The notes under the pieces were generated by a model. It was not told the DNA's origin and did not search any database. It worked only from the letters and a program-made list of their open reading frames with translations. From the IMG/VR virus record IMGVR_UViG_3300025012_000029, positions 96,001-160,000 of that record: a stretch of DNA of 64,000 nt. One strand, given 5' to 3'. This document shows positions 1,860-55,352 of this stretch, piece after piece; the first letter of the stretch is position 1, and every line of letters starts with the position of its first letter. Made by a program: the position numbers and the translations under genes. The stretch comes from a virus (taxonomy: Duplodnaviria > Caudoviricetes).

Positions 1860-2996
1860 TTACGTATCTATTTTCATTTTTATACTAAATGAGTCCGTCT
1901 CTCTTTTTCTTATCGGCGAGGCCAATTTAGCAATTGCTATTAAATTTCTATCACGATCATATATTCCAACACGAGACAAATATGTGACATTATCAAAACT
2001 TCCGGTAGGCTCTATAAAATTACTTTTCACAATATTTTTTATTTCTATTTTATCACTTTCTCTATATTGCGTTGAACTAGAATGTGGAGTAATAGATCCT
2101 GTTTGTCCATGTTTGAGAAATGTTGGATTATTTGAAAAATTCAATTGCCCTTTTTGTGCGTGAGCAAACATAGTAATAACTGGAGTAAAAGTAGTTCCTT
2201 CAAAATCAATTTCAAAACTCGACGAAGCCACGTTCGTAAGATCGGCAGGAGTTGCTGAACCCGTTGTTCCAAAAAAAGTCCATCTAGGAGATTTAGAAAC
2301 TGGATCATGTATATCATAGCGTTCCTGATGCGATGGATGAATTGTCCAGCTTCCAGTTAAAGAAATAAATCCTTCTCTGTATAGAACAACACCAGCAACG
2401 CTGCCACTATTAGAATCTTGTGGTAGTTTCTGTCTCAATTCTCCATTGCCCTTATCGTCTGTAAGTTCTGCAGCAAGAGTTCCAGTTACATAAAATTTAC
2501 ACGACACACTTCCTTTTCTAATTGAAGAACCATAAAATATAGATGGAACACCGATCAACGTAATCTCTTGAGAGCTTTTATTCCCCAAAGATGATTCATA
2601 TGTAAAGTGTTTACTAAGAGTTTTATTATTGAAAATATTTCTGAGGGCATCAATATGAGACCGAACAACACCAGCAACATATCTATCAATTGAAATGCCA
2701 GCAGCTAATGGATAAGATCCTGTTACAATATCGCCATAAGAAAAATCAGAATTGAATTCAGAAGTGCTAACAGTTTTAAAAGATGTCAATGACCCGTCTT
2801 TTGTAATAAATGGATAGGTGTTTCCTGCTCCAGGAATTGGATGTAGAAATTCATGTATATCAATTTGTCCATTTGGAACAGTAACGGGCAATTGGTTGTT
2901 ATAGTAAATTTGCCCATCATAAATTTTGAAGTTTATGTTTGGATGGGCTTTAATTTGATTATAAAATATATCGTTTTTACCAAATTTGTGGTACAT
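1860..2996 (-). CDS. Virion tail/baseplate-associated structural protein
   Basis: 378 aa; C-terminal VGIYDRDRNLIAIAKLASPIRK resembles the tail-collar-fibre (DUF3751-like) motif; this C-terminus is paralogous to that of 3298..4386. Confidence 0.55.
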   Translation of the reverse strand: MYHKFGKNDIFYNQIKAHPNINFKIYDGQIYYNNQLPVTVPNGQIDIHEFLHPIPGAGNTYPFITKDGSLTSFKTVSTSEFNSDFSYGDIVTGSYPLAAGISIDRYVAGVVRSHIDALRNIFNNKTLSKHFTYESSLGNKSSQEITLIGVPSIFYGSSIRKGSVSCKFYVTGTLAAELTDDKGNGELRQKLPQDSNSGSVAGVVLYREGFISLTGSWTIHPSHQERYDIHDPVSKSPRWTFFGTTGSATPADLTNVASSSFEIDFEGTTFTPVITMFAHAQKGQLNFSNNPTFLKHGQTGSITPHSSSTQYRESDKIEIKNIVKSNFIEPTGSFDNVTYLSRVGIYDRDRNLIAIAKLASPIRKRETDSFSIKMKIDT

Positions 2997-3004
2997 TACT
3001 GGTA

Positions 3005-3013
3005 ATAAATAGT
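3005..3013 (-). promoter_or_regulatory. Candidate late-promoter motif ACTATTTAT
   Basis: Lies 8 nt upstream of the ATG at 2996. Related motifs occur at 5355-5363 (identical), 27049-27057 (ACTAATTAT), 35856-35864 (AGTATTTAG) and 900-907 (GCTATTTA). Confidence 0.4.
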
Positions 3014-3014
3014 T

Positions 3015-3251
3015 CTAGAACTCTTTTACAAAAACAATATTTCCAAGATCCCAGATGCGATCATACCCATTGTTTTGAAGATTTTCCCATTCTGTTAGTG
3101 ATACATCAAAATTTGATATCACATTCTCAAGTTTATGTTTTATTTTAACTTTTTGTTTGAGAGATTTATATGTGAAGATTTCTTCCAAAAAATAGTCTTC
3201 ATTTTGAAGTGCTTCTAAAAATTTATTTCCATTTGCGTAATTCTTTTTCAT
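3015..3251 (-). CDS. Small hypothetical protein inserted among structural genes
   Basis: The track starts this ORF at TTG 3287, but that TTG is the -35 box of a promoter; ATG at 3251 (MKKNYANG..., 78 aa) is the more likely start. Confidence 0.55.
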   Translation of the reverse strand: MKKNYANGNKFLEALQNEDYFLEEIFTYKSLKQKVKIKHKLENVISNFDVSLTEWENLQNNGYDRIWDLGNIVFVKEF

Positions 3252-3257
3252 ACCTGT

Positions 3258-3287
3258 AATATACCACAGGTTCAGAAAGCTTTTCAA
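3258..3287 (-). promoter_or_regulatory. sigma70-type promoter (leaderless)
   Basis: TTGAAA (3287-3282), 18-nt spacer ending in TGG (extended -10), TATATT (3263-3258); ATG follows 6 nt later. Confidence 0.55.
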
Positions 3288-3297
3288 TGGTTAGAAA

Positions 3298-4386
3298 TTA
3301 ATAATCTAACCTTATTCTTAATGTTAACTCATTTGTTGGGTCTTTACGTAAGGGCTCTGAAAGTTTAGCAACAGCAAGAAGTTCGTTATCTGCTGAGTAC
3401 AAACCGCAAGTTGTTATGTAACTTACGGGCGCATCAAGTGTATTGTTCTTCACAACAATTTTACTACCACTCAGATATGTGGGATTGGCTGAGTAATTAA
3501 AATCATTATTATTAATCCTGCAGAAATGAATCGTCGAATTCAACTCTGTCGTATTATTAAACGATAAATTATACATCCTGTGTCGAAGAGCGTCAGCGGC
3601 GCTAGAAATTGTTGATGTGCGAAATAGAGTATTTACATCTTCTCCAGCAGAATTCATTTGAGCTTTTATTCTCAATTTTCCGTTCGAACCAGTTGTATTT
3701 TCAAAAATAGAGCCAGTAAGAACTGCTATTCCCGCTTGATAAAACACAAGCCCACAATTTCCATTTAATACTGTTGCGCCATAAGAAGCTGAATAAGCTC
3801 CGGCGATGGACGCACTCAAAATTCCATATTCACCTACGGGAGAATTAACTCTAAAATCATTTTGAGCACCAGAATCTGTTATTGTAAACAATGTTTGGAA
3901 TGGAGAAGTCGTTTCATACGTATCAAACGCTCCCAAAACAAGAGAAAATGATCCTTTCTTTATTTCGTCTTTAGAAAGAAGACGTGAAAAGTTTAAGAAA
4001 TAACATTCCTGTATCTTTGTGCCACCAGCAAGTAAATCTCCATCTTCATCCAATAAATTTATACCACCAGTTACATCATGTCCCATCAATATTTGAGACA
4101 TTTGATTATACATGTTTATTTTCTTACTGTTTTGAGAATTAGCACTGCTTGATAAGGCAGAGTTAGAAGAATATCCCATAGTAATATCAAAGATGTGATT
4201 GGAAGAAGCGGAAAGATATGGGTAATCATATACGCTCTGAAAAATTCCGTGAGAATAGTTTTTAATATTAGATTCAGCAGCATATGTTCCAGAAACAATT
4301 GAACCTGTAATAGGAATTGCTTCGTGTAATAGCGTTCTCGTCGAAACGACATCTCCATTAAGGAAGGTCTTAAATACACTGCTCAT
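3298..4386 (-). CDS. Virion tail/baseplate-associated structural protein
   Basis: 362 aa; C-terminal CGLYSADNELLAVAKLSEPLRKD (DUF3751-like); GAGGAG Shine-Dalgarno upstream. Confidence 0.55.
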   Translation of the reverse strand: MSSVFKTFLNGDVVSTRTLLHEAIPITGSIVSGTYAAESNIKNYSHGIFQSVYDYPYLSASSNHIFDITMGYSSNSALSSSANSQNSKKINMYNQMSQILMGHDVTGGINLLDEDGDLLAGGTKIQECYFLNFSRLLSKDEIKKGSFSLVLGAFDTYETTSPFQTLFTITDSGAQNDFRVNSPVGEYGILSASIAGAYSASYGATVLNGNCGLVFYQAGIAVLTGSIFENTTGSNGKLRIKAQMNSAGEDVNTLFRTSTISSAADALRHRMYNLSFNNTTELNSTIHFCRINNNDFNYSANPTYLSGSKIVVKNNTLDAPVSYITTCGLYSADNELLAVAKLSEPLRKDPTNELTLRIRLDY

Positions 4387-4415
4387 CGAGAATCTCCTCT
4401 TTCCAAATCCTATTA

Positions 4416-5327: not shown

Positions 5328-5350
5328 ATAAGTTATTTCTTCTCCTCTTC

Positions 5351-6262: not shown

Positions 6263-6287
6263 GAACCCAATTCTACTATATTATTAT

Positions 6288-6656
6288 TCAGTATTCAGTC
6301 GTTTTCCTAACCGGATTCCACAAAGTTCCTCCACCAAAACCATGTTCGAGTCCTAAATTCTTTTCTAGTATTAAAATATCGTTGTTATTCTTTGCCACAA
6401 TTGGAAGATCTTCTCTTTTGGTGACAACTTGATACACCTTGAGTATTTTTTTATTATTTTTATCATATGATATTTCTGCATCCCATATTAAGCGTCCTCC
6501 ATTTGTAAAGAACCTTATGAATGGTGCCTGTGTTTTTTCTAATTCACTAACAATAACTGACTCTATATTGGCATCAAATGACTCTTGAGAATTTTCAACT
6601 GAAAATAATCCGTCTTCAACAATCAAATCTTTTGTTATTACATTTTCAACAATCAT
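6288..6656 (-). CDS. Hypothetical protein
   Basis: 122-aa ORF that fills the gap between neighbouring genes on the same strand. Confidence 0.55.
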   Translation of the reverse strand: MIVENVITKDLIVEDGLFSVENSQESFDANIESVIVSELEKTQAPFIRFFTNGGRLIWDAEISYDKNNKKILKVYQVVTKREDLPIVAKNNNDILILEKNLGLEHGFGGGTLWNPVRKTTEY

Positions 6657-6685
6657 ATTATATTATTTCTTCTCTTTCCGAAAGA

Positions 6686-9697: not shown

Positions 9698-9702
9698 TAA
9701 TA

Positions 9703-13599: not shown

Positions 13600-14516
13600 C
13601 AGCAGTCTTTAATTTCTTCTTCGCGAACAGAGCTTGAATATAGTATTCTTTTTACATCTGTTGGCAAAAGTTCATCTTCAACCTCGTCATCTATAATTAT
13701 GTCAAAGAAGTATTCTACACATGACGTATCTAACGGAGGGATATTGGTATTTATTTGATTTTCATCTAAAAGAATGTTATTTTTGATGAGTTCCGGTTTT
13801 TGAGAAACAAACCGTAAAGGAATGAGAACTTCTTTAGAACCATCTTCCGTGATCTCAAAAACTTCTATCTCAAAATTTTCACTTCCATAAATTGTGTTTA
13901 GCTCTTCAACGTCAATAACAATAGAATCTTCAATAACGTCAATATATGATCCATCTTTAAATTCATTGACAAGCAGTCCCAAATCGGTCCTATTAGCTTG
14001 AATTTCATCTAAAGAAAGTTGCTTAGTGATTGTTCTATACTCTATATCTTTCATTTCCAGTTGTGGTATTTTTAACGTCGTATGCTCTCCCTCTTTAAAA
14101 GAGATAGAACTGGAGATTTCTCCATCTAATACTTTAATAGACCAACCAGGAGCAGACGTTGCTTCAAGACTAATTGTCCCAATTGGAGCAGTTAACGAAT
14201 AATGTTTTTCAGCAGTAGGTTGAATCTTTTTACTACCTAATTCAGATTGCCCTTGTTTTATGAATTTATTTATTTTTATAACTTCTGTTTCAACTCCATG
14301 AAACAAGTGTTGAACTTCCAATTGAGGTATCTCTTTAATTCTGTCGTGAACATTATTTTGAGGCTCACTTAAAGACGCATATTGAGAATCATATAAAATT
14401 TCAGTATCAAAAAAAGCATACGAGTCAGGATGAAATTGTCCCTTTGAGAGAAGATATTTCCCATATTGTGTGATCTCGATATCGAGCACTTCCTCTTTGT
14501 TGTTGAGAAATTTCAT
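13599..14516 (-). CDS. Conserved putative structural protein
   Basis: 305 aa; N-terminus (EVLDIEITQYGKYLLSKGQF...YAFFD) is similar in layout to that of 4416..5327; coupled to both neighbours. Confidence 0.5.
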   Translation of the reverse strand: MKFLNNKEEVLDIEITQYGKYLLSKGQFHPDSYAFFDTEILYDSQYASLSEPQNNVHDRIKEIPQLEVQHLFHGVETEVIKINKFIKQGQSELGSKKIQPTAEKHYSLTAPIGTISLEATSAPGWSIKVLDGEISSSISFKEGEHTTLKIPQLEMKDIEYRTITKQLSLDEIQANRTDLGLLVNEFKDGSYIDVIEDSIVIDVEELNTIYGSENFEIEVFEITEDGSKEVLIPLRFVSQKPELIKNNILLDENQINTNIPPLDTSCVEYFFDIIIDDEVEDELLPTDVKRILYSSSVREEEIKDC

Positions 14517-17500
14517 TAGAATTTAATCCCTCCGCCACCCTTTGGTGAACTACTTTTTACACCTTTAGTTGATTTACCAAATACACTTATTCCTATAGAT
14601 GGTTTAACTGTAATTGAATCCATCACACTCTTTTTACCTACTGAAATTCCTATATTAGATGAAACAGTTTGATTTGACACATTTAATGTCGGCGCCACTG
14701 TACTAGGAACAATCCTAGAAATGGTACTAGATAAACCTCCCACTCCTGGTGTTGGAATTGGTATATCTTTTGGTATTGGAGCAATTGTTACTTCGGCTTC
14801 AATTTGAGCTAATTCAACTAATGAAAAATAATCATATGGCCAGTTAAAGGAATAATCTGGAGCCTTCACTCCTACCTTAAAATCAAACTTAAACCTATCA
14901 TCATCTTTTGAATCAGCCGTCTTCTCAAAATAATTGATTGCCGCTAGCTTTTTGACTTTAAAAACTAACCATCTTACGTTAGAAGGCAATTTCTTTCCAT
15001 GGAAAAATTCCCATGGACGCATGGGATGCGACAATTCTACTTCATCTTTTTCTGATGTCATGCCAATTTTAGGCATAACTCCTTGCCATATATCCACCAC
15101 ATCTTGTTTATCGAGAACGTGTTTAAATTCAAAAATATACATTACAAATGGAGGAATATCATCATATTTCAAAAAGTTCATTTCAGGTGGAATTACATAT
15201 TGACTCATTTGCTGCGGCAGTTTTGATATAGACGTTTCAGAAATATGAAAATCTCCAAATCCAGAAGTTGGATCGATGGCGTCTTGCCCAGCTTCAATTT
15301 TGCTTTTTTGTGTCCTCCATTGGGTCTCGTCTATTTTGAAAAAATTCCTTCCCATCACATTAGTAGTAACTGCAAATTCGTCATCCTTAAAAAGATTATC
15401 AATAAATGGAATAGCAACAATTGCTTCTGCAATTTCTTTGCCAGTATTTGGTTCTCCTAAACGCAAAGGTTCTGTATTAAATCCAAATACATTGATCAAT
15501 GAACCCGTTACTAGTTGTTCTTCTAAAGTTAAATTTGAAAAACTCTCCTCAACAGACATATATACACCAGTAGATCCAGAACAAAATTCTCCATATCCAC
15601 TCCACATTCCCTTTGGTATTTGATATCTTTTTATTGCTGTGTCATCCACGATGATGTCATAATATTCAGTTGGTTGGTTCTTAAAATTCAGAATTGGGCA
15701 TTCAAAACGAGGAGAAATTGCCCACGAATTAAATGTGGAATCGGCATCCTCGATCGATTGTGCTGCTGCTTTTCCAGTTATAGTATTAAACGATTTTGTA
15801 TCATACGTAACTTTCAATCCTTTACTTACTCCAAATAAATTAATAGAAGAACTTACTGTAGAGCGTCCTTGCCAAGCAGGACGAAGGGGAACAGCATCAT
15901 ACCCATCATGATTATAAAAGGCTATAAAATCCCTTAATGTATTATTATAATTTTCTACATTTGCTTTAGATAGCACATACGAAATAGGATCAAACTTCTC
16001 TTTTTCGGTTCCATCTGCTTTATATGAAATTCTAGCAACAGAATCTTTGAAATAATAAGGTGGCAAATATGGAGCATATGCTGGATCGGCGTAACGTACC
16101 AATCTCATATGACTTCCTATAGCTGTAGCATTTCCAAATGCAGCAATACCAAATGCGTAAAGACGGTCAGCGATATCCGTTGCACGATCGTTAAAATCAT
16201 CAGCCCACTTAAAAGGATGCCCAAAAAATCTTCCCGTATATGTTAATGCTGCATAATCCGGCACAATTTCTGTCGAATCCGGTCCGGCGCCGTTCGGTCC
16301 GGACGGTCCATAAGCAAACGAAGCAGTATGAAATAATTTATCTGTACTATTCCAGCGAGAACCATACATCAACAAATCGTCACTTTTATATAATTTAACG
16401 TCCATATAATAAGAGTTGCCAGAAACCATTGCTCGCATTTTGTTAGAAGGTTTAGAAATAATGGCTTTTACCTTACTTCCTTCAAGAAAAAAATTAATTG
16501 ATTCAGCAAGAAAATTATGCATAGACAGTTTATACAAAGAATTTGATTCACCTCCATTCCAATCAAAAAATATATCTCTTCGATTACCTGGAAGGTTCGT
16601 GGCGCCGGCGAGAAACTCAACGAGATTCCAATATATCGAACCAGATCCATTTGAGGAAGAAATAGGCACTCCACCTCTATTAGATCCATTCTTGATATCT
16701 AATAAAGATTCGAATTGAATTTTATAATTTGGATCATCATAAAATAAAAGATTTGCACCAGCTCCCAATGTTCCTATATCTCCTTGAGAACCAGTAAAAA
16801 CTGGAAAATCCATTGCGATACCAGATTTAATAGTATTATACAAAATGCCTGGAGCGAAAAACGGCTGCAATAAAGACATTACAGCAAGATTTCCAGAATG
16901 TGGATTCATGCTCGAATCGCGAGGTTTTCCGTCTTTCCAATACAATCCACCAATATGTGGAGCATAAGATTGAGAAAACAATGTAGCTAATTGAACTGTT
17001 CTAGTGACTGGATAGAATCCATTGTAAGGTAATAATTTTTTAATACCTTTACATTTAAGAGTTATTCTTTCAACATGATTATCAATATCGTTATGATCGT
17101 TATATATAACATCATAATGTTTCATTATGTCTGAATGTGAAAATGTTTTGAAAAATGTCTCATCAAGTCCAGACTCTTCGGTCGTAGCACTTTGTGTAAT
17201 AAATGCTCCAACATTGGATAAAAATTTATTATTTGACTTTCTAAAATTTCCGCCTTGCTTGTTAACATAAAAATCCATATTCTGTGATATATTAAATTCT
17301 GGAATGATTGAGTAATCTTTACTTAGACTTTTGATATCATCAAAAAATTCTTCGTACGAATCAAACCACGGATTCTTGCCTGATAAAATACTTGTTCTAA
17401 ATCGATGCTCATAAGTATCTTGAACAAGTTCATAGGATTTTCCGTTTTCAGAAAAATTAAAGTCATGATAAGTGTTGGCAAAAAGATCACCAAAAGGTTT

Positions 17501-20500
17501 GTTATATAAGGCAGATGCAGTTGGATGTAAAAAGTAATAGAAGTGACTTCCGGAACCGAAATCCGCACTGGCACTGGCACCTCTTTGTATATAAAACCAA
17601 TCTCTAACGGCAAATGTAGGAGGAGGCAGATTAACTTCATAAATGGTTCTATCCGGGGATAATTCTCCAGAGTCGTAATTTCCCCACTTACCCATATTTT
17701 TAGAATTTCCATCAGGGTATTCATATGACTGAGTGTGATAAAGTTCAATTCCAAACGGCCAAAGACTTGGAGCGTCGCCATCCCTTATCCCTTGTGAATT
17801 TATCAAAGGAGTTGTAAGAGAACCAGATCTTACTATATATGAACCTTCTTCGAGATGTCCATCTATCAAGCCAAATCGATTTCTTTTCTTCGGATCATTT
17901 CTCCAAAACGTTCTTCTCTCTAAAGGATTTCTATCTATTCCATTATGACCATACGAAGCAGATGAAACATTTTCTAAAACAAGAGCCTGATTTGAATCGT
18001 AGAAATTATATACAAAAGTACCAGATACTGACGCATCTTCAGCATGGTTTGTTCTGCCTCTTATTATTTTCTTTCCTGTATTAATTTCCTTCGGATAAAT
18101 AACTTCACTATATTGTAAAGATAAAAATCCATCTATCGGATTCTCTAATTCATTTTGATCGGCATCAATGTATAATTCCTTAATACGATCATACATCTGA
18201 TCATCACACTTGCTCAATCCCAATTTATTATTCAAATCTGTATTGGCAAACATGCCTATATTATTTGAATATGAATGTCTTAAGGAAACTGGAGTGTTAC
18301 TTCCTTTAACATTCAAAGTATGAATCATTGGTCTATTGCGAAATACAACAGCAGGTTCTTCATAATTTGTAAATGTATCTGAACGGCGATCCTTGTAAGG
18401 AATCCTTTGTCCGGTGTTTGTCGTTATAAGTCTTTCCTTGGTAGGATCGCTTACAGACAAAATATTTGTTTCTCTATGTTTTCTAGCAATTGGATGTTCA
18501 CCAGTTCTGATTTGTTTCCATGATGGATATTGGTATGGACCATTGCGATGTAATAATAATTTATTCAATACTTCATGTTCTGGAATTGTTCCAAATAAAG
18601 TATTTTTATATTCTGAAGAACTCAACAGATTGATAGAAGCAGTAAGTGAATCTTTAATGAGAGTATTAATTCCTGCGAAATCTACCCTTATTCCGCTTAT
18701 ACCTTCAATATCACTGCTAGCAGAAATAAAAACCAAATCAAAACCAGGAACTGATGTGCTTCCACTGGGAACATAAAATTCTGAAGCATAACCAATTGGA
18801 CAAAGTTCAGGAATGGCAGAAGACGTTATCCAAGCATATTGTAATTCACTTTGAGGAATGGGTCTTTGAACAAAAGCATTATCATAAACTGAAGCGGTTA
18901 TGAATGCGCTACCATCCTCTTCTATTCTCCTCGACGTGTTTCTGTTTATTTTATGATAATTCGCATATGCTGATGCCGTTGGATGAACTCCGAATTGTCC
19001 AGCATGAGTCGATTCGTCAATATTTAACCTATTTCTAACCAGAGAATTTCTATAATTGAGATCATTATAGACAGAATATTCTTCTGCCTCTCTGTCCAAA
19101 TATCCCCTAGATATTGTTTTTTGTTCGCCAGGAGAAGAAAAATGTTCTACAAAAACATGTTCAGAGTTGTATGCGGTCCTATCTGGAAGTGTGAACTCTC
19201 GTCCTCCAAGAACTGGAGTTTGTAATGTAAGGGATTGACTTCCTTCGGTTCTTGTTAGAAATCTATTATTGTTTGTTCTTCCAGATGTTTGAACAATCTC
19301 ATAGTCAGACGCATAATTTCCCAATGGAATATGCGCGTTTCTAACTGAAGATGATATAGAAAAAAGAGACCTACTATTTTTAATATTCTCTATTCTCATT
19401 GGTTCTATAAAATCGCTTGCCGTCACTTGTTGAGAAGCGTCAAGGTGTAATGGAGTTGTAAAACTTCTATTCAATGCGCTTGTGCGAACAGAAAATATTC
19501 GTGTTCTGCTAATATCTACTGATGTGATACCTGATGAATTAATTCCTGTTTTTTCTGCTCTATTTTTCCACCAAAACTCATTTTCAGATTGAAGTCCAGA
19601 AACTGGAGCGGAACCATCTTTCCAGTCATAAAGAAGTTCATTAATGCTTTTCATTCCACCTTCGGGTGGATTGCCTTTGAATTCAATGGTTGGTAATTTA
19701 TTCCAATACTTATTTCTTTCTAGAATATGACTTTCAATTAACGTTCTAACTTCACCAGAAAAATGAGCAGATGCCGGAATAAGTTGTTGAAGCATCATTG
19801 AAATTGAAGAATCAAACCATTTGAAGTAATCAACAAATTTCTCAAAATCAATTGAAGAATTCTTAACTCTTTCAAAATAAAGATGACGAAGTTGTGTAAG
19901 ATTTTTATATTCTTGTCTGTAACGATTAACAGGTTCTCCAATGAGATTATTGAAATCTTTAATTGTTCCAAATATCTTTAATACTTCATCTGTTATTATC
20001 GCATATGGACTTTTTTCAATAGCATAGAAGTGTTTGACTGGACGTGTATCGCGAGTAAACAAATCATCATCGCTAGTTCTAATTTCGACCATATTCGAAC
20101 TATTGAGAACTTCCGGTGGCAATTGTTTTGCTGATGGGATATATTCAACATTTACAGCGTCGATATCAAATGGCAAGAAGAAGTCTCCTTGTCCTGGATG
20201 TTGATGATATCTGATTGGTCCAAACCAACTATATCTGTTTGTTAATTCAAGAGAACCTGAAGTGGTATCCTCTACAATAAATTTAGCGTCTGATGTTGTT
20301 GGAAGTCCATCGCTAGAATTGCTAGATCCAGTAACATTTTCAAATGTCCAATGAAGAACTAATGTCTCCATTTCTGGAACTTCTATAATTCTTCTTGGCA
20401 GTAAGAAAGGATCATCGCAGGCACCAAGAGATGAAGAAAACAAATTAAAAGATGTATCTGCTGCCGTTATGTAAATTCTAACATCAAAAGATAAAGAGCC

Positions 20501-21100
20501 AGAAGGATCAATTACAACTGAATAACCATTTCCATATGCTGTGTATGACGAACTTGGACCATTGAAGGGCGCAACAAATGAACCAGATACTAATGCTTCC
20601 TGTAAAGAACCTGTTCCTTGTTGAACAAAAATATGAACTGAATTGCTGTCAACAGATGAACCAACATCTAAAACTTTGAAAGTAACATTATCGTTTGGAT
20701 TCGCATCAGTTGGGTTTGGTATGATTAAGTCATCAATATAGGGAGTCAACCCATATCCATTAAAATCATACGATAGAGGCGATAAAGAAATATTTTGATA
20801 ATCTACAACTCCAGAAACTATGTTTAAGGCATAATTTGATGACCCATTTGTCATCTCAGTATTAAACGATAAGTCAATATAGGTTGGATATGTTATTATT
20901 TGAGCAGAAGCACTTACTACGGATAATCCAACACTTCCAAGATCTGCTGCTATACTATAACTGCCCGTTGAATTAAACAGGGCAGACGAACTCATTGGAG
21001 AGGAAAATCCAACTCTAACAGTGTCAGTATCTATAGCAATGATACTTGTAATGCTGACTGAAGGGCCTACCCCAGTGAAGGAATTTGTCAAATGTGCCAA
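14516..21100 (-). CDS. Giant tail/baseplate protein with N-terminal Ig-like domains
   Basis: 2194 aa, TTG start with AAGGT upstream. The first ~240 aa look like two Ig-like modules (VRVGFSSPM...YSI...YALNIVSGVVD; VTFKVLDVGSSVDSNSVHIFV). Confidence 0.55.
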   Translation of the reverse strand: MAHLTNSFTGVGPSVSITSIIAIDTDTVRVGFSSPMSSSALFNSTGSYSIAADLGSVGLSVVSASAQIITYPTYIDLSFNTEMTNGSSNYALNIVSGVVDYQNISLSPLSYDFNGYGLTPYIDDLIIPNPTDANPNDNVTFKVLDVGSSVDSNSVHIFVQQGTGSLQEALVSGSFVAPFNGPSSSYTAYGNGYSVVIDPSGSLSFDVRIYITAADTSFNLFSSSLGACDDPFLLPRRIIEVPEMETLVLHWTFENVTGSSNSSDGLPTTSDAKFIVEDTTSGSLELTNRYSWFGPIRYHQHPGQGDFFLPFDIDAVNVEYIPSAKQLPPEVLNSSNMVEIRTSDDDLFTRDTRPVKHFYAIEKSPYAIITDEVLKIFGTIKDFNNLIGEPVNRYRQEYKNLTQLRHLYFERVKNSSIDFEKFVDYFKWFDSSISMMLQQLIPASAHFSGEVRTLIESHILERNKYWNKLPTIEFKGNPPEGGMKSINELLYDWKDGSAPVSGLQSENEFWWKNRAEKTGINSSGITSVDISRTRIFSVRTSALNRSFTTPLHLDASQQVTASDFIEPMRIENIKNSRSLFSISSSVRNAHIPLGNYASDYEIVQTSGRTNNNRFLTRTEGSQSLTLQTPVLGGREFTLPDRTAYNSEHVFVEHFSSPGEQKTISRGYLDREAEEYSVYNDLNYRNSLVRNRLNIDESTHAGQFGVHPTASAYANYHKINRNTSRRIEEDGSAFITASVYDNAFVQRPIPQSELQYAWITSSAIPELCPIGYASEFYVPSGSTSVPGFDLVFISASSDIEGISGIRVDFAGINTLIKDSLTASINLLSSSEYKNTLFGTIPEHEVLNKLLLHRNGPYQYPSWKQIRTGEHPIARKHRETNILSVSDPTKERLITTNTGQRIPYKDRRSDTFTNYEEPAVVFRNRPMIHTLNVKGSNTPVSLRHSYSNNIGMFANTDLNNKLGLSKCDDQMYDRIKELYIDADQNELENPIDGFLSLQYSEVIYPKEINTGKKIIRGRTNHAEDASVSGTFVYNFYDSNQALVLENVSSASYGHNGIDRNPLERRTFWRNDPKKRNRFGLIDGHLEEGSYIVRSGSLTTPLINSQGIRDGDAPSLWPFGIELYHTQSYEYPDGNSKNMGKWGNYDSGELSPDRTIYEVNLPPPTFAVRDWFYIQRGASASADFGSGSHFYYFLHPTASALYNKPFGDLFANTYHDFNFSENGKSYELVQDTYEHRFRTSILSGKNPWFDSYEEFFDDIKSLSKDYSIIPEFNISQNMDFYVNKQGGNFRKSNNKFLSNVGAFITQSATTEESGLDETFFKTFSHSDIMKHYDVIYNDHNDIDNHVERITLKCKGIKKLLPYNGFYPVTRTVQLATLFSQSYAPHIGGLYWKDGKPRDSSMNPHSGNLAVMSLLQPFFAPGILYNTIKSGIAMDFPVFTGSQGDIGTLGAGANLLFYDDPNYKIQFESLLDIKNGSNRGGVPISSSNGSGSIYWNLVEFLAGATNLPGNRRDIFFDWNGGESNSLYKLSMHNFLAESINFFLEGSKVKAIISKPSNKMRAMVSGNSYYMDVKLYKSDDLLMYGSRWNSTDKLFHTASFAYGPSGPNGAGPDSTEIVPDYAALTYTGRFFGHPFKWADDFNDRATDIADRLYAFGIAAFGNATAIGSHMRLVRYADPAYAPYLPPYYFKDSVARISYKADGTEKEKFDPISYVLSKANVENYNNTLRDFIAFYNHDGYDAVPLRPAWQGRSTVSSSINLFGVSKGLKVTYDTKSFNTITGKAAAQSIEDADSTFNSWAISPRFECPILNFKNQPTEYYDIIVDDTAIKRYQIPKGMWSGYGEFCSGSTGVYMSVEESFSNLTLEEQLVTGSLINVFGFNTEPLRLGEPNTGKEIAEAIVAIPFIDNLFKDDEFAVTTNVMGRNFFKIDETQWRTQKSKIEAGQDAIDPTSGFGDFHISETSISKLPQQMSQYVIPPEMNFLKYDDIPPFVMYIFEFKHVLDKQDVVDIWQGVMPKIGMTSEKDEVELSHPMRPWEFFHGKKLPSNVRWLVFKVKKLAAINYFEKTADSKDDDRFKFDFKVGVKAPDYSFNWPYDYFSLVELAQIEAEVTIAPIPKDIPIPTPGVGGLSSTISRIVPSTVAPTLNVSNQTVSSNIGISVGKKSVMDSITVKPSIGISVFGKSTKGVKSSSPKGGGGIKF

Positions 21101-21121
21101 AACTTATTTACCTTACTGTAA

Positions 21122-23815
21122 TTATTGTCCTTGTCCAAAAGATCTTGTAGTCTCTGTCAACCAACTGTTGCGTAATGGATGAGCAGAACCATAATTGGTA
21201 GCGTCTTTAGCGTGTGCTATAATTTCTTCTTCTTTCAAATATTTCATCCATACTCTCAAATTTGAAATCTTCGCATCTGAATAATTCACAACGGAACCTG
21301 TGAAATTAGTGCGATGAGATCCAACAAAAAATCTTTTGGCATTGGTTATAAACGCTATAGCGGCATCATACGTAATAGATCCACTAACGCTAAAACTATT
21401 ATTGATAATATCAACTGTCGTATTGTGTCCAGAAAATTCTACAACAAAGTTATTGGTGGCGCTTCCAGTAACTCCGCCTGCCCATGGATAAGTGGAAGGT
21501 TTAATTCTAACTGTAAATAACCATCTTTGATTATCATAAACATCTCTAAATGTTTCACTGTTTAATTCTGGCAAAACATATCCCGCCGTCCCACTCAACA
21601 TAAAATACGCTTCTTTGGATTCGAGTTGTGGTCGAACAGCATAAACTTGAAAATTAGCATAGTCTGGAAGAAACCATTCTTTACTATCTGACTCTAAACA
21701 TTCTGCCGTATGCGCACCATATATGGAAGCCATTGTGAATGGCGTCTCAAAATACAATTGAGAATCTTTTTCAAATTTCTTTGGAAAGATTGCTTCACAT
21801 TCATATGTTTGTCCGTGATAAACCGTATTTGAAGGAGCAGCAATATATGAACGAGAAGAAGGAGCACTAGATGTATGTTGGTATACTGTTGAATCAAATC
21901 TGTCAACATTGTTAAAATCAACATACTTCTTTTTAGCTGCTACATATCGATAATTGTCTTTCAAATCATAAACTACATTATCGCCATATAAATTAATCTT
22001 AACTAACTCATCATCTATACCAAAACATCTAATGAGATTTCTAAATGATTTTTCTGTTCCCTTTGACTTGTAGATATAAACCAAATTATTGTAAATGTTT
22101 TGATAAATCTTGTTCCTTATATCTGATAGTTTCTCAGAGAATTCTCTAAAATCATCTCGTCCAGCAATAGCTTCAAGTTCTTCAGCTTCTGTAAAAATTT
22201 CTGGCGCAATCATTCCTGCTGACTCTAAAAATCTTGAAACAAAAGGATATGGTTTACTACTACCACTCACATAATTTGGAGTTTTAAGTTTTGGTAATTC
22301 TTGGATTTGTAGGAATAAATTATCTAAGTAACTTGCTAACACTTGTGTCATTTTACGCAATACACGATGTTCTTTTTCTTCATCGCCTGTTGTTATCCAC
22401 TCCGGAAATGAGCCGTAAAGACTAGCGTTGTTTGTTGAATCATGTTCAAATCCTATTTCCTGTTTTTGAAGAATAAGAGCGCCAACATCTGGATGATTAG
22501 AATAAAGAATTGGATCCATAAATTCAAACGCTGCGGCGCCACTTTCTACCATGGCAGAACCTGTATGACGAGAACCCGTGACATATCCAATCCAACGCCC
22601 ATTAGAAACTCTTCCTGAATAATCTAAAACTTTAGTATCAGTGGAATCAACCGAGCCTGTAGAAATTATACCTTCATTAAATTTATAATAGACGCCTAAT
22701 TGCGTATTTGCTTCATCAGTATTTGTTCCAGCGCCTATTTGTGTAAACCAATATCTCCCTATTTGTTTGGCATTTCTTCTATTCTTCCAAAATCTAAACT
22801 CATCTAATGATCCAGATAATTTAGCAAATCCAGACCCACCAGAACCAGAAACTGTGCTAATCAAAGAGCCAACAGAAGCTAACATTGGTCCTCTTACTAG
22901 TCCTATATTGGAACCAGAAATAATAGTATCATTGAGCGTTCCGCTAGCATAAAGTTGTGCTACCATACTACTTCCACTATTAATAACTGAAATAGAAAAT
23001 TGTTGCCACCCAGAACCAGTTATATTGAGCCCATTTCCAATTGGAATAACTCCATATGGTTGACTGACAGATATCCCGGATGAACCAGATTGTAATTCAA
23101 TATAAAATTTTGATTGTTCGCCAGATACTCCAGGATGTATCTCCACTCTGAACCGTCCATAGTCGGCAGTTCCATACGAACCACTATTCCAAACATCAAA
23201 AACAGATTGCTTTGTGGATTCATTTCCTGAAGAGAATCCATTTTTCTTAAGCCAAAATTCAATAGTTACTCCGGTAGAACCATTAATTTCGAGATTTGAT
23301 TCTCTTCTTGAATCTACATTGTAAAAGTTTGAATTTGTGAATGTTTCATATAAAGGTTTTCCAACCATTCCTTCAGAAGCAGAATGAGGACCACCTTTGA
23401 GAAGGATATAACTTCCAGAAGTTGCCGAACTGTATCCATTAGAAGATGATATAATCGTTCCATAGGATACTCCAAAATTGGCATATCCTGTTGTTCTTGG
23501 ATACTCGTGTTCAAAAATATATTTGTCTAAATAAGAAGCAGAAAGTTCCCATTCAACTTTTTCCTTCGAAGAACCATCATATGGGTAATCGTTAAGAATG
23601 TAATTTATGCTATCTTCGTAATATTGCTGGGATAAACCAAAATGCGCAAAATTCTTTGGTTGAGAGTAATCAATATTTGGGACGAACCGATTTTTGTTTT
23701 CTATTTCCCGTCTGACGAAATCAGATGATTCTACTTCTGCACCGACTTCTTCAAAAGAAACTGATGGTAAAACTTTTTCTGAAATCTCGTTATTGAATAA
23801 ATTTTTGAGACTCAT
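21122..23815 (-). CDS. Tail/baseplate protein with LamG (concanavalin A-like) domain
   Basis: 897 aa; GVTIEFWLKK...WQQFSISV...SGSLDEFRFW is LamG-like; IYKSKGTEKSFRNLIRCFG resembles the baseplate wedge KGT motif. Confidence 0.6.
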   Translation of the reverse strand: MSLKNLFNNEISEKVLPSVSFEEVGAEVESSDFVRREIENKNRFVPNIDYSQPKNFAHFGLSQQYYEDSINYILNDYPYDGSSKEKVEWELSASYLDKYIFEHEYPRTTGYANFGVSYGTIISSSNGYSSATSGSYILLKGGPHSASEGMVGKPLYETFTNSNFYNVDSRRESNLEINGSTGVTIEFWLKKNGFSSGNESTKQSVFDVWNSGSYGTADYGRFRVEIHPGVSGEQSKFYIELQSGSSGISVSQPYGVIPIGNGLNITGSGWQQFSISVINSGSSMVAQLYASGTLNDTIISGSNIGLVRGPMLASVGSLISTVSGSGGSGFAKLSGSLDEFRFWKNRRNAKQIGRYWFTQIGAGTNTDEANTQLGVYYKFNEGIISTGSVDSTDTKVLDYSGRVSNGRWIGYVTGSRHTGSAMVESGAAAFEFMDPILYSNHPDVGALILQKQEIGFEHDSTNNASLYGSFPEWITTGDEEKEHRVLRKMTQVLASYLDNLFLQIQELPKLKTPNYVSGSSKPYPFVSRFLESAGMIAPEIFTEAEELEAIAGRDDFREFSEKLSDIRNKIYQNIYNNLVYIYKSKGTEKSFRNLIRCFGIDDELVKINLYGDNVVYDLKDNYRYVAAKKKYVDFNNVDRFDSTVYQHTSSAPSSRSYIAAPSNTVYHGQTYECEAIFPKKFEKDSQLYFETPFTMASIYGAHTAECLESDSKEWFLPDYANFQVYAVRPQLESKEAYFMLSGTAGYVLPELNSETFRDVYDNQRWLFTVRIKPSTYPWAGGVTGSATNNFVVEFSGHNTTVDIINNSFSVSGSITYDAAIAFITNAKRFFVGSHRTNFTGSVVNYSDAKISNLRVWMKYLKEEEIIAHAKDATNYGSAHPLRNSWLTETTRSFGQGQ

Positions 23816-23821
23816 AGCTCT

Positions 23822-25234
23822 TTAATCCACTCGAAATCGAAATATTTCTGGTTGCTCAGCGTAGATTCCATCCTCTAAAAATACAAATCTAAAAGCATAA
23901 GTATAACTTGGTTCGAACATAGACATATCACAATCAAACCACATACCTTTACCATCGTAAGATAATTTCGTGTGAGATGTGGAACTTGTTCCATAATCAA
24001 CTATTGTATGATTATCATTTATTCTCATTACTTTAAAGAAAGAATTTTCAACAATAGTTCCTTGGATATCTGCTGAAGCAATCGATACTAAATTCGGACT
24101 CCAATCACGAGGGCGAATAAACAATCTTATTCTGGCAGTTTCTTTATTCGAATACGATGGCTTCAGATTTGTTATAGATGTTACATATCCACGAGTTTCT
24201 AAATAATGATCCAAAGAATCATATGCTAATGGATTAATAGATCCAGTGTGATACACAATTGAACCGCTAAACCATCGATCATACACGACAGATTTTGTAG
24301 TATTTAATTCAAATGAAGCAGAATATATTCCTGTGGAAACCCAGCCACCAGTTACCGGAGATGGAATAGTATTAACTAAAGTGCCTTCCGAAGCGGAAGT
24401 GTAAACTTGGAGATAAATTGAGCCACTGCTAATTCCAGGTATGTTTTTAAGTTGACCTCCAACATAATTGTAAAGATATACCGTGTGTGTATTGTCAGTT
24501 GTGCTCAATAATGGACTGGTAGTAAAAAATTTATCTCTATCGTCAGTAGTTGATGAATTCCATCTAGCTTCTATAATTGGACGACTAAAAAAGAACTCAC
24601 TTGTTCTGGCCAAAAATCTCTTCGTATAAAAACTTCTATTTGTATTTTCGTGACTTGATGACAGTGCCACTCCAACACCATAATTTGGAATTGTGCCAGC
24701 CAGCCAAGACTCAACAAGAGGAGTAATATTTATCTCCAAATCTTCTAATCCTTCATCGAAGAATTGACTTGAAGTTAACGTATTGAGATAATCCCCCCCA
24801 GCAGTCGTCCATACTGAAGCAGAACTGGCATTGATCCAATTTGCTCCTTCTCCGTTCCTGGTTATATCACTGCCATTTTCATGATCTAGCCCCACTCCTG
24901 CTTGCCAGGAACGAGACACGGGAGAAACAATTAAATTGAATTGCCTTGGCAAAGTTTCTCCATGAGGAGCATTAAACATCTTGAGGTAGAAATCTACGCT
25001 TCCAGAAGATGGAATTTTTCCAGAACTTCTATCAGAAGAAATAGAACTAATTGGAAATTCCAATAATGCCCTTTTTAACTCTGAAGATGAAGAATTTGCT
25101 TGAGCATAAATTGAAAAGATTTCGATTATGTCCGAAGCGCCATAGTTACTTCCCGTCTGCCTTGTTCTCAAATTAGACATAAAGGCATTTGAAATGCTGG
25201 TTGTCTTATTGGATGTATATCTTTTAATTGACAT
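23822..25234 (-). CDS. Putative virion structural protein (DNRLRE-like beta-sandwich)
   Basis: 470 aa; RALLEFPIS, YLKMFN, VSPVSRSWQAG and AGGDY motifs; coupled to the gp6-like gene. Confidence 0.5.
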   Translation of the reverse strand: MSIKRYTSNKTTSISNAFMSNLRTRQTGSNYGASDIIEIFSIYAQANSSSSELKRALLEFPISSISSDRSSGKIPSSGSVDFYLKMFNAPHGETLPRQFNLIVSPVSRSWQAGVGLDHENGSDITRNGEGANWINASSASVWTTAGGDYLNTLTSSQFFDEGLEDLEINITPLVESWLAGTIPNYGVGVALSSSHENTNRSFYTKRFLARTSEFFFSRPIIEARWNSSTTDDRDKFFTTSPLLSTTDNTHTVYLYNYVGGQLKNIPGISSGSIYLQVYTSASEGTLVNTIPSPVTGGWVSTGIYSASFELNTTKSVVYDRWFSGSIVYHTGSINPLAYDSLDHYLETRGYVTSITNLKPSYSNKETARIRLFIRPRDWSPNLVSIASADIQGTIVENSFFKVMRINDNHTIVDYGTSSTSHTKLSYDGKGMWFDCDMSMFEPSYTYAFRFVFLEDGIYAEQPEIFRFRVD

Positions 25235-38883: not shown

Positions 38884-38884
38884 A

Positions 38885-40087: not shown

Positions 40088-40088
40088 T

Positions 40089-42205: not shown

Positions 42206-42218
42206 TATAACACGCTAG

Positions 42219-46400: not shown

Positions 46401-46416
46401 ATTTTGTTTCCTTTTC

Positions 46417-47542: not shown

Positions 47543-47558
47543 TCTTCTACCTTCTCTT

Positions 47559-50590: not shown

Positions 50591-50623
50591 CGCTTTATCC
50601 TATATTTTTAATCCTGTCATCTT

Positions 50624-52155: not shown

Positions 52156-52157
52156 AA

Positions 52158-55342: not shown

Positions 55343-55352
55343 ACCTAAGACC

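What the first reader, a model, noticed from the sequence alone, without database searches (positions are those of the whole stretch)
1860..25234. Strong enrichment of an [S/T]-G-S tripeptide in five tail proteins: a possible glycosylation sequon
Manual counts of SGS/TGS: 15 in the 897-aa protein, at least 13 in the 2194-aa, 6 in the 378-aa, 5 in the 470-aa and 4 in the 362-aa. I found about 0-1 in each of the neighbouring 601-, 1003-, 1298- and 1965-aa proteins. The motif recurs in unrelated sequence contexts (ITGS, VSGS, NSGS, HTGS), so tandem duplication does not explain it. Inference: these are surface-loop acceptor sites for the phage GTs, which would give a glycan-coated tail. The ordinary explanation is a preference for beta-turns.
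Basis: partly seen in the sequence, partly recalled or inferred. Interest (0 to 1): 0.72.

Follow-up and report, generated by a model that had tools for sequence, protein, structure and literature searches.

The report
Ser/Thr-Gly-Ser motif marks outer virion proteins
A three-residue motif (Ser/Thr-Gly-Ser) is four to nine times too frequent in each of five tail proteins, and in other outward-facing particle proteins of this uncultured T4-like phage and its relatives; it may be where the phage's own enzymes attach sugars, but that is unproven.

Summary
[ST]GS counts are 6, 4, 13, 15 and 5 in the 378-, 362-, 2194-, 897- and 470-aa proteins (43 observed, 6.8 expected). The 601-, 1003-, 1298- and 1965-aa neighbours have 0-1. 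TGS and SGS are the two most over-represented of all tripeptides. The excess survives shuffling within 10-residue windows and is order-specific. It does not come from a DNA word, repeats, GC content or the LamG fold.

It reaches beyond the window. About ten more virion proteins of the 201-kb genome carry it. In sheath and capsid it lies only in the outer insertion domains. Non-virion proteins are at expectation.

Thirty uncultured relatives share the pattern, and so does the cultured Microcystis phage Mel-JY01. T4 and cyanophage S-SSM7 do not.

In two AlphaFold models the motif lies in loops or at strand edges, never in helices. Aligned homologs substitute SAS, TSS or SGT.

An adjacent glycosyltransferase pair co-occurs with the motif, but phylogeny confounds this.

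Glycosylation sequon (about 0.4) and lineage-specific turn motif (about 0.38) remain nearly level. Mass spectrometry of Mel-JY01 virions would decide. Earlier agents of this scan described the glycan island of this genome, but not the motif.

The parts
1860..2996 (-). 378-aa conserved virion protein of unknown fold with 6 [ST]GS sites (residues 92, 197, 214, 245, 299, 331). It is a paralog of the 362-aa protein.
   Evidence: 6 observed, 0.64 expected; 2763 homologs; the 120 listed homologs (47-73% identical) average 5.25 sites against 0.69 expected; sites 92, 197, 214 and 245 are kept in 75-86% of them; in the AF2 model (pLDDT 74) all sites are in loops; no PDB fold match. Atlas models resemble viral LamG-bearing clusters (TM 0.53-0.55).
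3298..4386 (-). 362-aa paralog of the 378-aa protein with 4 [ST]GS sites.
   Evidence: 4 observed, 0.69 expected; 26% identity over 180 aa to the 378-aa protein; both paralogs carry a similar Leu-Thr-Gly-Ser site followed by Trp or Ile.
14516..21100 (-). 2194-aa baseplate/fibre giant protein with 13 sites, 6 of them in the first 281 residues. In most relatives it is fused to the 897-aa protein.
   Evidence: 13 observed, 2.77 expected; relatives have one ORF of 2600-3570 aa with 11-25 sites; here three in-frame stops separate it from the 897-aa gene.
21122..23815 (-). 897-aa protein with two LamG/pentraxin-like jelly rolls and 15 sites, 8 of them in residues 211-336.
   Evidence: 15 observed, 1.55 expected. 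AF2 model with Foldseek matches to neurexin LNS, pentraxin and PAPP-A LamG domains; sites lie at hairpin turns or strand edges; the 21 aligned family members (query included) average 8.0 sites against 1.45 expected.
23822..25234 (-). 470-aa protein directly downstream of the gp6-like wedge gene, with 5 sites.
   Evidence: 5 observed, 1.09 expected; the 26 distinct family members (query included) carry 4-11 sites, mean 6.7 against 0.95 expected; viral-only structure clusters with a weak lead to CBM96.
25234..27039 (-). 601-aa gp6/baseplate-J-like wedge protein. It serves as an internal negative control with 0 sites.
   Evidence: 0 observed, 0.38 expected; weak match to a baseplate J-like chain (9gtp); 0-1 site in every relative; the Mel-JY01 counterpart (629 aa) has 0.
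38128..60829 (-). Nucleotide-sugar synthesis and glycosyltransferase island. It is the presumed source of the glycan.
   Evidence: PfkB kinase, DegT aminotransferase, GDP-mannose 4,6-dehydratase, five epimerase/dehydratase-family proteins, UDP-glucose dehydrogenase, GT2 and GT1-like domains, B12 radical SAM enzyme, ThDP E1 and an FAD oxidoreductase.
60816..63326 (-). 836-aa intein-bearing protein. Its Mel-JY01 counterpart gives a sub-threshold Pfam GT1 match. It is half of the lineage-conserved GT pair proposed as candidate motif reader.
   Evidence: intein and LAGLIDADG domains; the Mel-JY01 counterpart has a GT1 match of 22.5 bits, below the cut-off; the extein is 44-55% identical in five relatives and 33% in Mel-JY01, gives a weak match in RM378 (E 1.5e-4), and is absent from T4, S-SSM7 and XacN1.
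63675..64000 (-). Part of the 415-aa glycosyltransferase lying in the window's last 326 bases, adjacent to the 836-aa gene. The ORF runs off the window to genome 160922. It is the other half of the conserved pair.
   Evidence: 55-61% identical in five relatives, 35% in Mel-JY01 and 32% in RM378 (E 1e-27); absent from T4, S-SSM7 and XacN1; the Mel-JY01 counterpart carries a Pfam GT1 match.

Best explanation
[ST]-G-S, more loosely [ST]-[G/A/S]-S, is a short linear motif kept at high density in the outward-facing domains of this phage lineage's virion proteins. I propose it is the acceptor site for O-glycosylation by the phage's own soluble glycosyltransferases.

Proposed mechanism (inferred). 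Late in infection, the island's enzymes make activated sugars in the cytoplasm. A priming transferase recognises the tripeptide displayed at an exposed beta-turn or strand edge of folded or folding virion proteins, and it puts the first sugar on the third-position serine. The best candidate is the adjacent GT pair conserved across the lineage. The other transferases then extend the glycan. The result is a glycan coat on the capsid insertion domains, sheath outer domains, baseplate periphery and fibres.

Shown: the enrichment, its specificity, its restriction to peripheral virion domains, its conservation in the lineage, and its co-occurrence with the GT pair.

Inferred: that any sugar is attached, which residue is the acceptor, and which GT reads the motif.
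For: 1. The specificity is higher than turn propensity predicts. In the five proteins, 43 of 89 [ST]G dipeptides are followed by S, against 5 by T and 3 by N. GS and [ST]G show no excess outside the tripeptide. In the 15 motif-rich proteins, [ST]GS is 122 observed against 20.7 expected, [ST]AS 45 against 15 and [ST]GT 24 against 14.7; this set was picked by motif count, so its ratio is inflated.

2. The motif recurs in proteins with no detectable homology. All-vs-all BLAST finds only a few paralog pairs, and LamG profile HMMs hit nothing significant. Flank identity is 1.1 of 16 residues. This pattern fits recognition by a trans-acting factor.

3. The motif follows the virion compartment. The virion block has 125 sites against 28.2 expected, and the rest of the genome 19 against 19.4. 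All 7 sheath sites fall in residues 144-598, between the blocks that align to the T4 gp18 N-terminus and its C-terminal residues 355-653. Both capsid sites fall between the gp23-aligned blocks, where the insertion domain lies. That these T4 regions are the inner core and the outer domains respectively is established knowledge, not tested here. The gp6-like protein and the 1003-, 1298- and 1965-aa proteins have 0-1.

4. The trait is lineage-wide. Nearly all of the related loci that carry both genes show it, and TGS or SGS tops the tripeptide list in nearly every one. Sheath homologs down to 27% identity, from contigs of 35-61% GC, keep 2-6 sites against about 1.2 expected. Cultured Mel-JY01 has 52 sites against 8.6 expected in its baseplate/fibre block.

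5. Controls are negative. T4 virion genes give 4 against 9.8, with every large structural protein at 0. S-SSM7 gives 8 against 7.3. Seventy-nine LamG_3 homologs give 87 against 64.4.

6. Density is maintained while positions move. The p897 family averages 8.0 sites per protein against 1.45 expected, yet only 4 of 53 motif columns are shared by at least half of the sequences.

7. Gly is replaced by Ala or Ser at aligned sites, for example SGS 14 and SAS 6 at residue 334. This is not expected if a positive-phi glycine were the constraint.

8. The GT pair is present in five of five large relatives, in Mel-JY01 and in RM378, and absent from T4, S-SSM7 and XacN1.

9. There is a precedent for a soluble GT that hyper-modifies serine, not threonine, next to small residues (NSGG, TSAA) in a beta-rich substrate: TibC (PMC4358343). 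PAS-positive virion proteins are reported for the T4-like jumbo phage XacN1 (PMC5852040).
Against: There is no direct evidence of any modification.

In the AF2 models the motif sits where a canonical two-residue Gly-Ser hairpin turn would sit. At sites 243, 280 and 300 of the 897-aa protein, the S/T is the last strand residue and G-S forms the loop.

Several sites are as conserved as structural residues, and T against S is fixed per site: residue 214 of the 378-aa protein is TGS in 103 of 120 sequences and never SGS.

The apparent positional turnover may be inflated by misalignment in loops.

The co-occurrence with the GT pair is phylogenetically confounded, because all positives belong to one lineage. 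RM378 carries the pair but shows only a diffuse 2.4-fold excess, and its 378-aa homolog has a single site.

The related locus L032 has a p897 homolog with 0-2 sites although its contig has GT genes.

Three other island GTs (319, 556 and 265 aa) have no detectable homolog in Mel-JY01.

The island's target could instead be DNA or the host surface.
Confidence: 0.4

Rival explanations
1. The motif is purely structural and specific to this lineage. [ST]-G-S is this lineage's preferred way to build tight beta-hairpin turns and strand caps: an ST-turn followed by a two-residue Gly-Ser loop. It occurs in the jelly-roll and beta-sandwich accessory domains that decorate the virion. It was inherited and spread with those domains, and nothing is attached to it.
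For:: sites lie in loops, none of 16 confident sites is in a helix, and 9 of 11 in the 897-aa protein lie at strand edges. Three of those have S/T as the last strand residue followed by a two-residue G-S loop.

the 897-aa protein has two LamG jelly rolls, and the 378-aa protein resembles LamG-bearing viral clusters. Many motif-rich domains may therefore share one fold class.

some sites are near-invariant, with a site-specific choice of S or T.

Gly-Ser/Thr/Asn as the two-residue type II' hairpin loop is established knowledge (Sibanda and Thornton 1985, as cited in PMC4358343).
Against: The fold does not explain the excess. LamG_3 homologs reach 1.35x. The large T4 structural proteins, including gp10, gp12, Hoc and the sheath, have 0 sites, and the whole T4 stretch gives 4 against 9.8 expected. 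S-SSM7 sheath and fibre are at or below expectation.

Other classic turn dipeptides (NG, GN, GG, GT) are not enriched in the same proteins.

Ser is preferred about nine-fold over Thr and fourteen-fold over Asn at the third position in the five proteins and five- to fifteen-fold in the 15 motif-rich proteins.

Gly is often replaced by Ala or Ser.

The proteins are not detectably homologous.
Confidence: 0.38
2. The motif is read by a trans-acting factor other than a glycosyltransferase. Examples are a kinase or another serine-modifying enzyme, or an assembly chaperone that recognises exposed turns of late proteins.
For: The arguments are the same as for a sequon: recurrence in non-homologous virion proteins, strict residue order and Ser specificity. 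An earlier agent's note (e1-5320323, not tested here) reports GNAT-like and ART-like genes among the neck genes of this genome.
Against: I identified no candidate enzyme with a phyletic pattern that matches the motif. The only large enzyme set in the genome with no assigned target is the glycan island.
Confidence: 0.08
3. The enrichment is a composition or low-complexity artefact. On this view the excess only reflects Ser/Thr/Gly-rich linkers or duplicated segments.
For: The five proteins are somewhat rich in S (11-15%) and G (7-8%).
Against: Local shuffles in 10-residue windows give 9.6 +/- 2.9 against 43 observed. Permuted orders of the same residues are about four times rarer. There are no relevant tandem repeats and the flanks are unrelated. 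The codons are diverse.
Confidence: 0.02

Closest known systems
Mycobacteriophage virion O-glycosylation (Freeman et al. 2023, Cell Host Microbe, as described in PMC12619734; the paper itself was not readable here)
   Same: Phage-encoded glycosyltransferases decorate the phage's own structural proteins, and the glycans shield the particle.
   Different: There the glycans are reported at the C-termini of the capsid and tail-tube subunits, and the description in PMC12619734 mentions no acceptor motif. Here the candidate sites are internal, number 2-20 per protein, and are spread over about 15 proteins of a T4-like myovirus. Nothing here is experimentally shown.
Bacterial autotransporter heptosyltransferases TibC/Aah acting on TibA/AIDA-I (PMC4358343)
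   Same: A soluble cytoplasmic GT hyper-glycosylates many serines, not threonines, in a beta-rich substrate. The mapped sites are next to small residues (Ser-313 in NSGG, Ser-322 in TSAA).
   Different: That family is GT9 and dodecameric with an iron finger, and its substrate is a beta-helix adhesin. No GT9 enzyme was identified in this window, and the motif here is [ST]-G-S in jelly-roll and other accessory domains.
Two-residue Gly-Ser/Thr/Asn beta-hairpin turns (Sibanda and Thornton 1985, cited in PMC4358343; the residue preferences are from my own knowledge)
   Same: The predicted location is the same: the last strand residue, then Gly-Ser, then the next strand.
   Different: A generic turn preference does not predict Ser over Thr or Asn at the third position, S/T at the first position, Gly-to-Ala/Ser replacement, or the absence of the motif from T4, S-SSM7 and LamG_3 controls.
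Flagellin and other stepwise, lipid-independent bacterial O-glycosylation systems (review PMC12645811)
   Same: Soluble GTs transfer nucleotide-activated sugars directly to exposed Ser/Thr of a structural protein before it is assembled or exported.
   Different: The review states that no sequon is recognised for the Maf flagellin transferases. A defined tripeptide would be unusual for this class.
Chlorovirus PBCV-1 Vp54 glycosylation by virus-encoded cytoplasmic GTs (mentioned in PMC5852040; PMC7019647 turned up but was not read)
   Same: A virus encodes its own machinery to glycosylate its capsid protein. That the sites are atypical and virus-specific is from my own knowledge.
   Different: The host is eukaryotic and, from my own knowledge, the linkages are N-linked with different sequons.

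Membership tests
Protein O-glycosylation acceptor motif (sequon) | Over-represented in the target proteins after composition correction, with defined residue order | tested here: met
   43 observed against 6.8 expected. Local shuffles give 9.6 +/- 2.9. Permuted orders give about 10 each.
Protein O-glycosylation acceptor motif (sequon) | Sites are solvent-exposed on the substrate | tested here: inconclusive
   DSSP strings of two AF2 models place the sites in loops or at strand edges, never in helices. Sheath and capsid sites lie only in the segments that correspond to T4's outer domains.
Protein O-glycosylation acceptor motif (sequon) | A cognate transferase co-occurs with the motif across genomes | tested here: inconclusive
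   The GT pair is present in all motif-rich genomes tested and absent from T4, S-SSM7 and XacN1. All positives are one lineage, and RM378 has the pair with only a weak excess.
Protein O-glycosylation acceptor motif (sequon) | A glycan is covalently attached to the motif's Ser/Thr | not testable with these tools
   This needs mass spectrometry or glycan staining of virions. Mel-JY01 is cultured.
Canonical two-residue Gly-X beta-hairpin turn | Located at a tight turn between antiparallel strands | tested here: inconclusive
   This holds for about 3-4 of 11 confident sites in the 897-aa model (243, 280, 300, possibly 133). The others precede or follow a single strand or lie in long loops.
Canonical two-residue Gly-X beta-hairpin turn | Glycine is required at the first loop position | tested here: not met
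   Aligned homologs often have Ala or Ser there: SGS 14 and SAS 6 at residue 334; TGS 40 and TAS 25 at residue 331 of the 378-aa protein; TSS 27 at residue 306.
Canonical two-residue Gly-X beta-hairpin turn | The same preference is seen in proteins of the same fold elsewhere | tested here: not met
   LamG_3 homologs reach 1.35x. T4 gives 4 against 9.8. S-SSM7 gives 8 against 7.3.

The most novel reading that the evidence does not exclude
A defined tripeptide O-glycosylation sequon, [ST]-[G/A]-S displayed at exposed beta-turns, is read by a conserved soluble GT pair. That pair carries an intein and, per earlier agents' notes, a group I intron in this phage. It directs a glycan coat onto the outer domains of capsid, sheath, baseplate and fibres. 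The system would span a large lineage of environmental T4-like phages, including the cultured Microcystis phage Mel-JY01. To my knowledge it would be the first sequence-defined sequon for phage virion glycosylation; I found none in the papers searched.
Probability: 0.35. Interest if true: 0.85.

Novelty: new variant of a known kind. Interest (0 to 1): 0.62.

Why it matters
Large sugar-synthesis islands without export genes recur in environmental jumbo and T4-like phages, and what they modify is an open question. If this motif is the acceptor, target proteins and sites could be predicted from sequence alone.

The extent of a phage glycan coat could then be read from metagenomes. The hypothesis becomes testable peptide by peptide in a cultured relative, Mel-JY01.

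It would also give a rare example of a sequence-defined sequon for a stepwise, cytoplasmic O-glycosylation system.

If the motif proves purely structural, it is still an unusually strong lineage-specific turn signature. It marks peripheral virion domains and can help annotate them.

Tried and rejected
- **DNA-level word.** Rejected: 34 different 9-mers encode the 43 sites. GGT is used for Gly in 21 of 43 sites against 26% overall, which I did not explain.
- **Tandem or internal duplication.** Rejected.
- **Ser/Gly-rich patches.** Rejected by local shuffles.
- **GC effect.** Rejected: relatives with 35-61% GC keep the motif, and I recall T4 as similarly AT-rich (not computed here) yet it lacks the motif.
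- **A property of the LamG fold.** Rejected as sufficient: 1.35x.
- **A general property of T4-like virions, or of phages with sugar genes.** Rejected: T4 and S-SSM7.
- **Family searches.** Pfam and PHROGs gave nothing significant for the five proteins. PDB sequence searches were uninformative for the 470- and 378-aa proteins. Foldseek found no PDB match for the 378-aa model.
- **Similarity searches in the phage collection.** Megablast of the 897/470-aa genes and tblastn of the 470-aa protein found nothing.
- **A GT-less close relative.** None was found; all five large related contigs have GT2 genes.
The 319-, 556- and 265-aa GTs have no detectable homolog in Mel-JY01, RM378, T4, S-SSM7 or XacN1.
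- **XacN1 as a positive control.** It was uninformative. The PAS-positive bands are not identified in the paper, and its proteins show only about a two-fold excess.
- **Literature.** Searches for a Ser-Gly-Ser sequon found nothing. The Freeman 2023 paper is not held.
- **Complex prediction.** Not run, because an enzyme-substrate pair with an unknown priming GT is a poor use of that test.
Full report
**Setting.** The window is bases 96001-160000 of a 201,144-bp IMG/VR virus record that CheckV rates as complete. All long ORFs are on the minus strand and GC is about 33%. The phage is a distant T4 relative.
- It has a gp23-type capsid protein and a 949-aa tail sheath just upstream of the window.
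- It has a gp6/baseplate-J-like 601-aa protein at w25234-27039.
- Its nearest cultured relatives by capsid protein are Microcystis phage Mel-JY01 (36% identity) and Rhodothermus phage RM378 (33%).
- The five proteins of the finding lie downstream of the gp6-like gene, in the baseplate-periphery and fibre part of the tail module. Pfam and PHROGs gave no significant match for them.
- Window 38-64 kb is a nucleotide-sugar and glycosyltransferase island. Earlier agents of this scan had already described it as soluble and lacking export genes.

| Protein | Observed | Shuffle mean |
|---|---|---|
| 378 aa | 6 | 0.64 |
| 362 aa | 4 | 0.69 |
| 2194 aa | 13 | 2.77 |
| 897 aa | 15 | 1.55 |
| 470 aa | 5 | 1.09 |
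| 601, 1003, 1298 aa | 0 each | 0.38-1.22 |
| 1965 aa | 1 | 1.03 |

Further checks:
- Among all tripeptides in the five proteins, TGS (21 against 2.5) and SGS (22 against 4.3) rank first and second. No tripeptide stands out in the neighbouring proteins.
- The signal belongs to the tripeptide, not to its dipeptides. Of 89 [ST]G, 43 are followed by S. Of 69 GS, 43 are preceded by S or T.
- Shuffling inside windows of 10, 20 or 40 residues leaves 8.2-9.6 expected against 43 observed. Other orders of the same residues occur about 10 times each.
- Codons are diverse, there are no relevant tandem repeats, and the flanks share 1.1 of 16 residues on average.

**The pattern is wider than the finding.** Genome-wide there are 144 sites against 47.6 expected. 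The virion block (genome 54-130 kb) holds 125 against 28.2 expected, and the rest of the genome holds 19 against 19.4.
- Strongly enriched proteins outside the window include a 581-aa protein (15 sites), a 488-aa protein (12) and a 1103-aa fibre-like protein (20). Others are the sheath (7), a 434-aa neck-region protein (4), a LamG_3 protein (3), a 118-aa protein (4) and a 458-aa protein (7).
- The distribution is bimodal. Many core or internal components have none.
- In the sheath, residues 650-949 and 11-67 align to T4 gp18 residues 355-653 and 3-59. All seven sites lie at 144-598, which is the expanded counterpart of gp18's outer domains.
- In the capsid protein, both sites (160, 201) lie between the two gp23-aligned blocks. 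That is where the surface insertion domain sits.
- That these T4 regions face outward is established knowledge, not something I tested here.

**The proteins are not one family.** All-against-all BLAST links only a few pairs: 378/362, 488/1103, 395/488 and 458/463. Profile HMMs of the two LamG domains of the 897-aa protein hit nothing significant elsewhere in the genome.

**Conservation.**
- Thirty related IMG/VR loci (22-71% identity, 34% or more for the full-length matches) repeat the pattern. The 470-aa homolog has 4-11 sites and the gp6-like protein 0-1.
- In the same loci the roughly 2000-aa upstream protein has 0-3 sites, and the 897+2194 counterpart, usually one ORF of 2600-3570 aa, has 11-25.
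- One exception is L032, whose 897-like region has 0-2 sites.
- TGS or SGS tops the tripeptide ranking in nearly every relative, with SAS, TAS, TSS and SSS behind.
- The 378-aa protein has 2763 homologs. The 120 best average 5.25 sites against 0.69 expected.
- Sheath homologs down to 27% identity, from contigs of 35-61% GC, keep 2-6 sites against about 1.2 expected.
- A few sites are nearly fixed: residues 197, 214 and 245 of the 378-aa protein, and 334 and 418 of the 897-aa protein. Most are not.
- In the 897 family only 4 of 53 motif columns are shared by at least half of the sequences. Each protein still carries 8.0 sites on average against 1.45 expected. Loop misalignment may exaggerate this turnover.
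- At aligned sites the usual replacements are SAS, TAS, SSS, TSS, SGT and TGT. The motif generalises to [ST]-[G/A/S]-S.
- In the 15 motif-rich proteins, [ST]AS is 45 against 15 and [ST]GT 24 against 14.7. That set was chosen by motif count, so its ratios are inflated.

**Structure.**
- AlphaFold2 on a 21-sequence alignment gives the 897-aa protein a mean pLDDT of 69.
- The model has two jelly rolls that Foldseek matches to neurexin LNS, pentraxin and PAPP-A LamG domains.
- The 378-aa model (68 sequences, pLDDT 74) has no PDB match. Atlas models resemble viral LamG-bearing clusters.
- None of 16 confidently modelled sites is in a helix. In the 897-aa protein 9 of 11 abut a strand end, against a 39% background.
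- Three of those sites have the S/T as the last strand residue followed by a two-residue G-S loop.
- This is where a Gly-Ser hairpin turn would sit, and it is also where an exposed acceptor would sit.
- The tool returns no coordinates, so I could not compute accessibility.

**Controls.**

| Set | Observed | Expected |
|---|---|---|
| T4 virion genes, 70-120 kb | 4 | 9.8 |
| Cyanophage S-SSM7 virion proteins | 8 | 7.3 |
| 79 diverse LamG_3 homologs | 87 | 64.4 |
| RM378, 20 ORFs | 12 | 4.9 |
| Mel-JY01 baseplate/fibre block | 52 | 8.6 |

- In T4 every large structural protein has 0 sites. That includes gp5, 6, 7, 8, 10, 12, wac, 18, 23, 24 and Hoc.
- S-SSM7 has heptose and epimerase genes among its structural genes, but its sheath has 0 sites.
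- XacN1 shows about a two-fold excess. RM378's excess is diffuse.
- Mel-JY01 shows the full signature. The 1336-aa protein has 11 sites against 1.4 expected, the 718-aa protein 9 against 0.6 and the 591-aa protein 5 against 0.6.
- In the same phage a 508-aa annotated structural protein has 13 against 2.5, the sheath 4 against 0.95, and the gp6-like protein 0.

**Glycosyltransferases.**
- All five large related contigs carry GT2 genes, so no GT-less close relative was available.
- Comparing the whole proteome with Mel-JY01 shows two adjacent island genes conserved as an adjacent pair. One is the intein-bearing 836-aa protein (w60816-63326). The other is the 415-aa GT that runs off the window's end (genome 159675-160922).
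- The pair is present in five of five relatives (44-61% identity) and in Mel-JY01 (33-35%). In RM378 one member matches at 32% and the other only weakly (E 1.5e-4). It is absent from T4, S-SSM7 and XacN1.
- The pair's presence therefore tracks the motif, but all positives are one lineage, and RM378 is only weakly positive.
- Three other island GTs have no homolog in those genomes.

**Interpretation.** Four observations argue for recognition by a trans-acting factor:
- the tripeptide is strict and order-specific;
- it recurs in non-homologous proteins of one compartment;
- its density is maintained while positions move;
- same-fold and same-architecture controls lack it.

The only unassigned enzyme set at hand is the glycan island. 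TibC shows that a soluble GT can hyper-modify serines, but not threonines, next to small residues in a beta-rich protein (PMC4358343). Glycosylated phage virions are known from mycobacteriophages (PMC12619734), and PAS-positive bands were reported for XacN1.

Against this:
- nothing shows a sugar on these serines;
- the predicted location is that of an ordinary Gly-Ser turn;
- some sites behave like fixed structural residues;
- the co-occurrence with the GT pair is confounded by ancestry.

I put the sequon reading at about 0.40, a purely structural lineage-specific turn motif at about 0.38, and another trans-acting reader at about 0.08. An artefact is essentially excluded. I found no published sequon of this form.

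Noticed in passing
window 21095-21124 (junction of the 897-aa and 2194-aa genes); loci L006-L030: In most relatives the 897-aa and 2194-aa proteins are one giant ORF of 2600-3570 aa. Here they are separated by three in-frame stop codons within 30 bases. Other relatives are split at other points (898, 1122, 1229, 1246 and 1552 aa).
   Followed up: partly
window 1860-2996: The 378-aa protein belongs to a very large family (2763 hits, about 50% identity across many clusters), including TARA ocean samples. It has no Pfam, PHROG or PDB fold match. It looks like a conserved core virion protein of an undescribed fold, and its C-terminal half resembles LamG-bearing viral proteins in the ESM Atlas.
   Followed up: partly
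window 60816-63326 and 63675-64000 (continuing to genome 160922): The two adjacent GT genes conserved as far as Mel-JY01 and RM378 both appear to host selfish elements in this phage: an intein with a LAGLIDADG domain (confirmed here) and a group I intron (taken from earlier agents' notes, not checked here). In some relatives (649-668-aa ORFs) the first GT is fused to a GT2 domain.
   Followed up: partly
window 5351-6262 and 51346-52155: A 303-aa ORF inside the tail module is 52% identical over its C-terminal 139 residues to a 269-aa ORF in the sugar island. The latter has only a sub-threshold HNH_4 match (18.1 bits against a 22-bit cut-off). They are probably two copies of a free-standing, possibly HNH-type, homing endonuclease.
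   Followed up: no
the 43 motif sites within window 1860-25234: Gly in the motif uses GGT in 21 of 43 cases, against 84 of 317 (26%) for all Gly in the same proteins. I have no explanation.
   Followed up: no
L035:3065-8430 (Mel-JY01 3065-8430): In Mel-JY01 the most motif-rich protein (508 aa, annotated structural protein, 13 sites) lies directly upstream of a 1226-aa protein. That protein is annotated FkbM methyltransferase and also carries a GT1 domain. A cytidylyltransferase-like gene follows a few kb further downstream.
   Followed up: no
L056:32985-37526 (RM378 112985-117526): The RM378 homolog of the 378-aa protein lies three genes from a UDP-galactopyranose mutase-like gene. It carries only one [ST]GS.
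   Followed up: partly
L002:218-3067 (genome 54218-57067): The tail sheath is 949 aa. About 580 residues lie between the gp18-like N-terminal and C-terminal blocks, roughly twice the length of the corresponding T4 region.
   Followed up: partly
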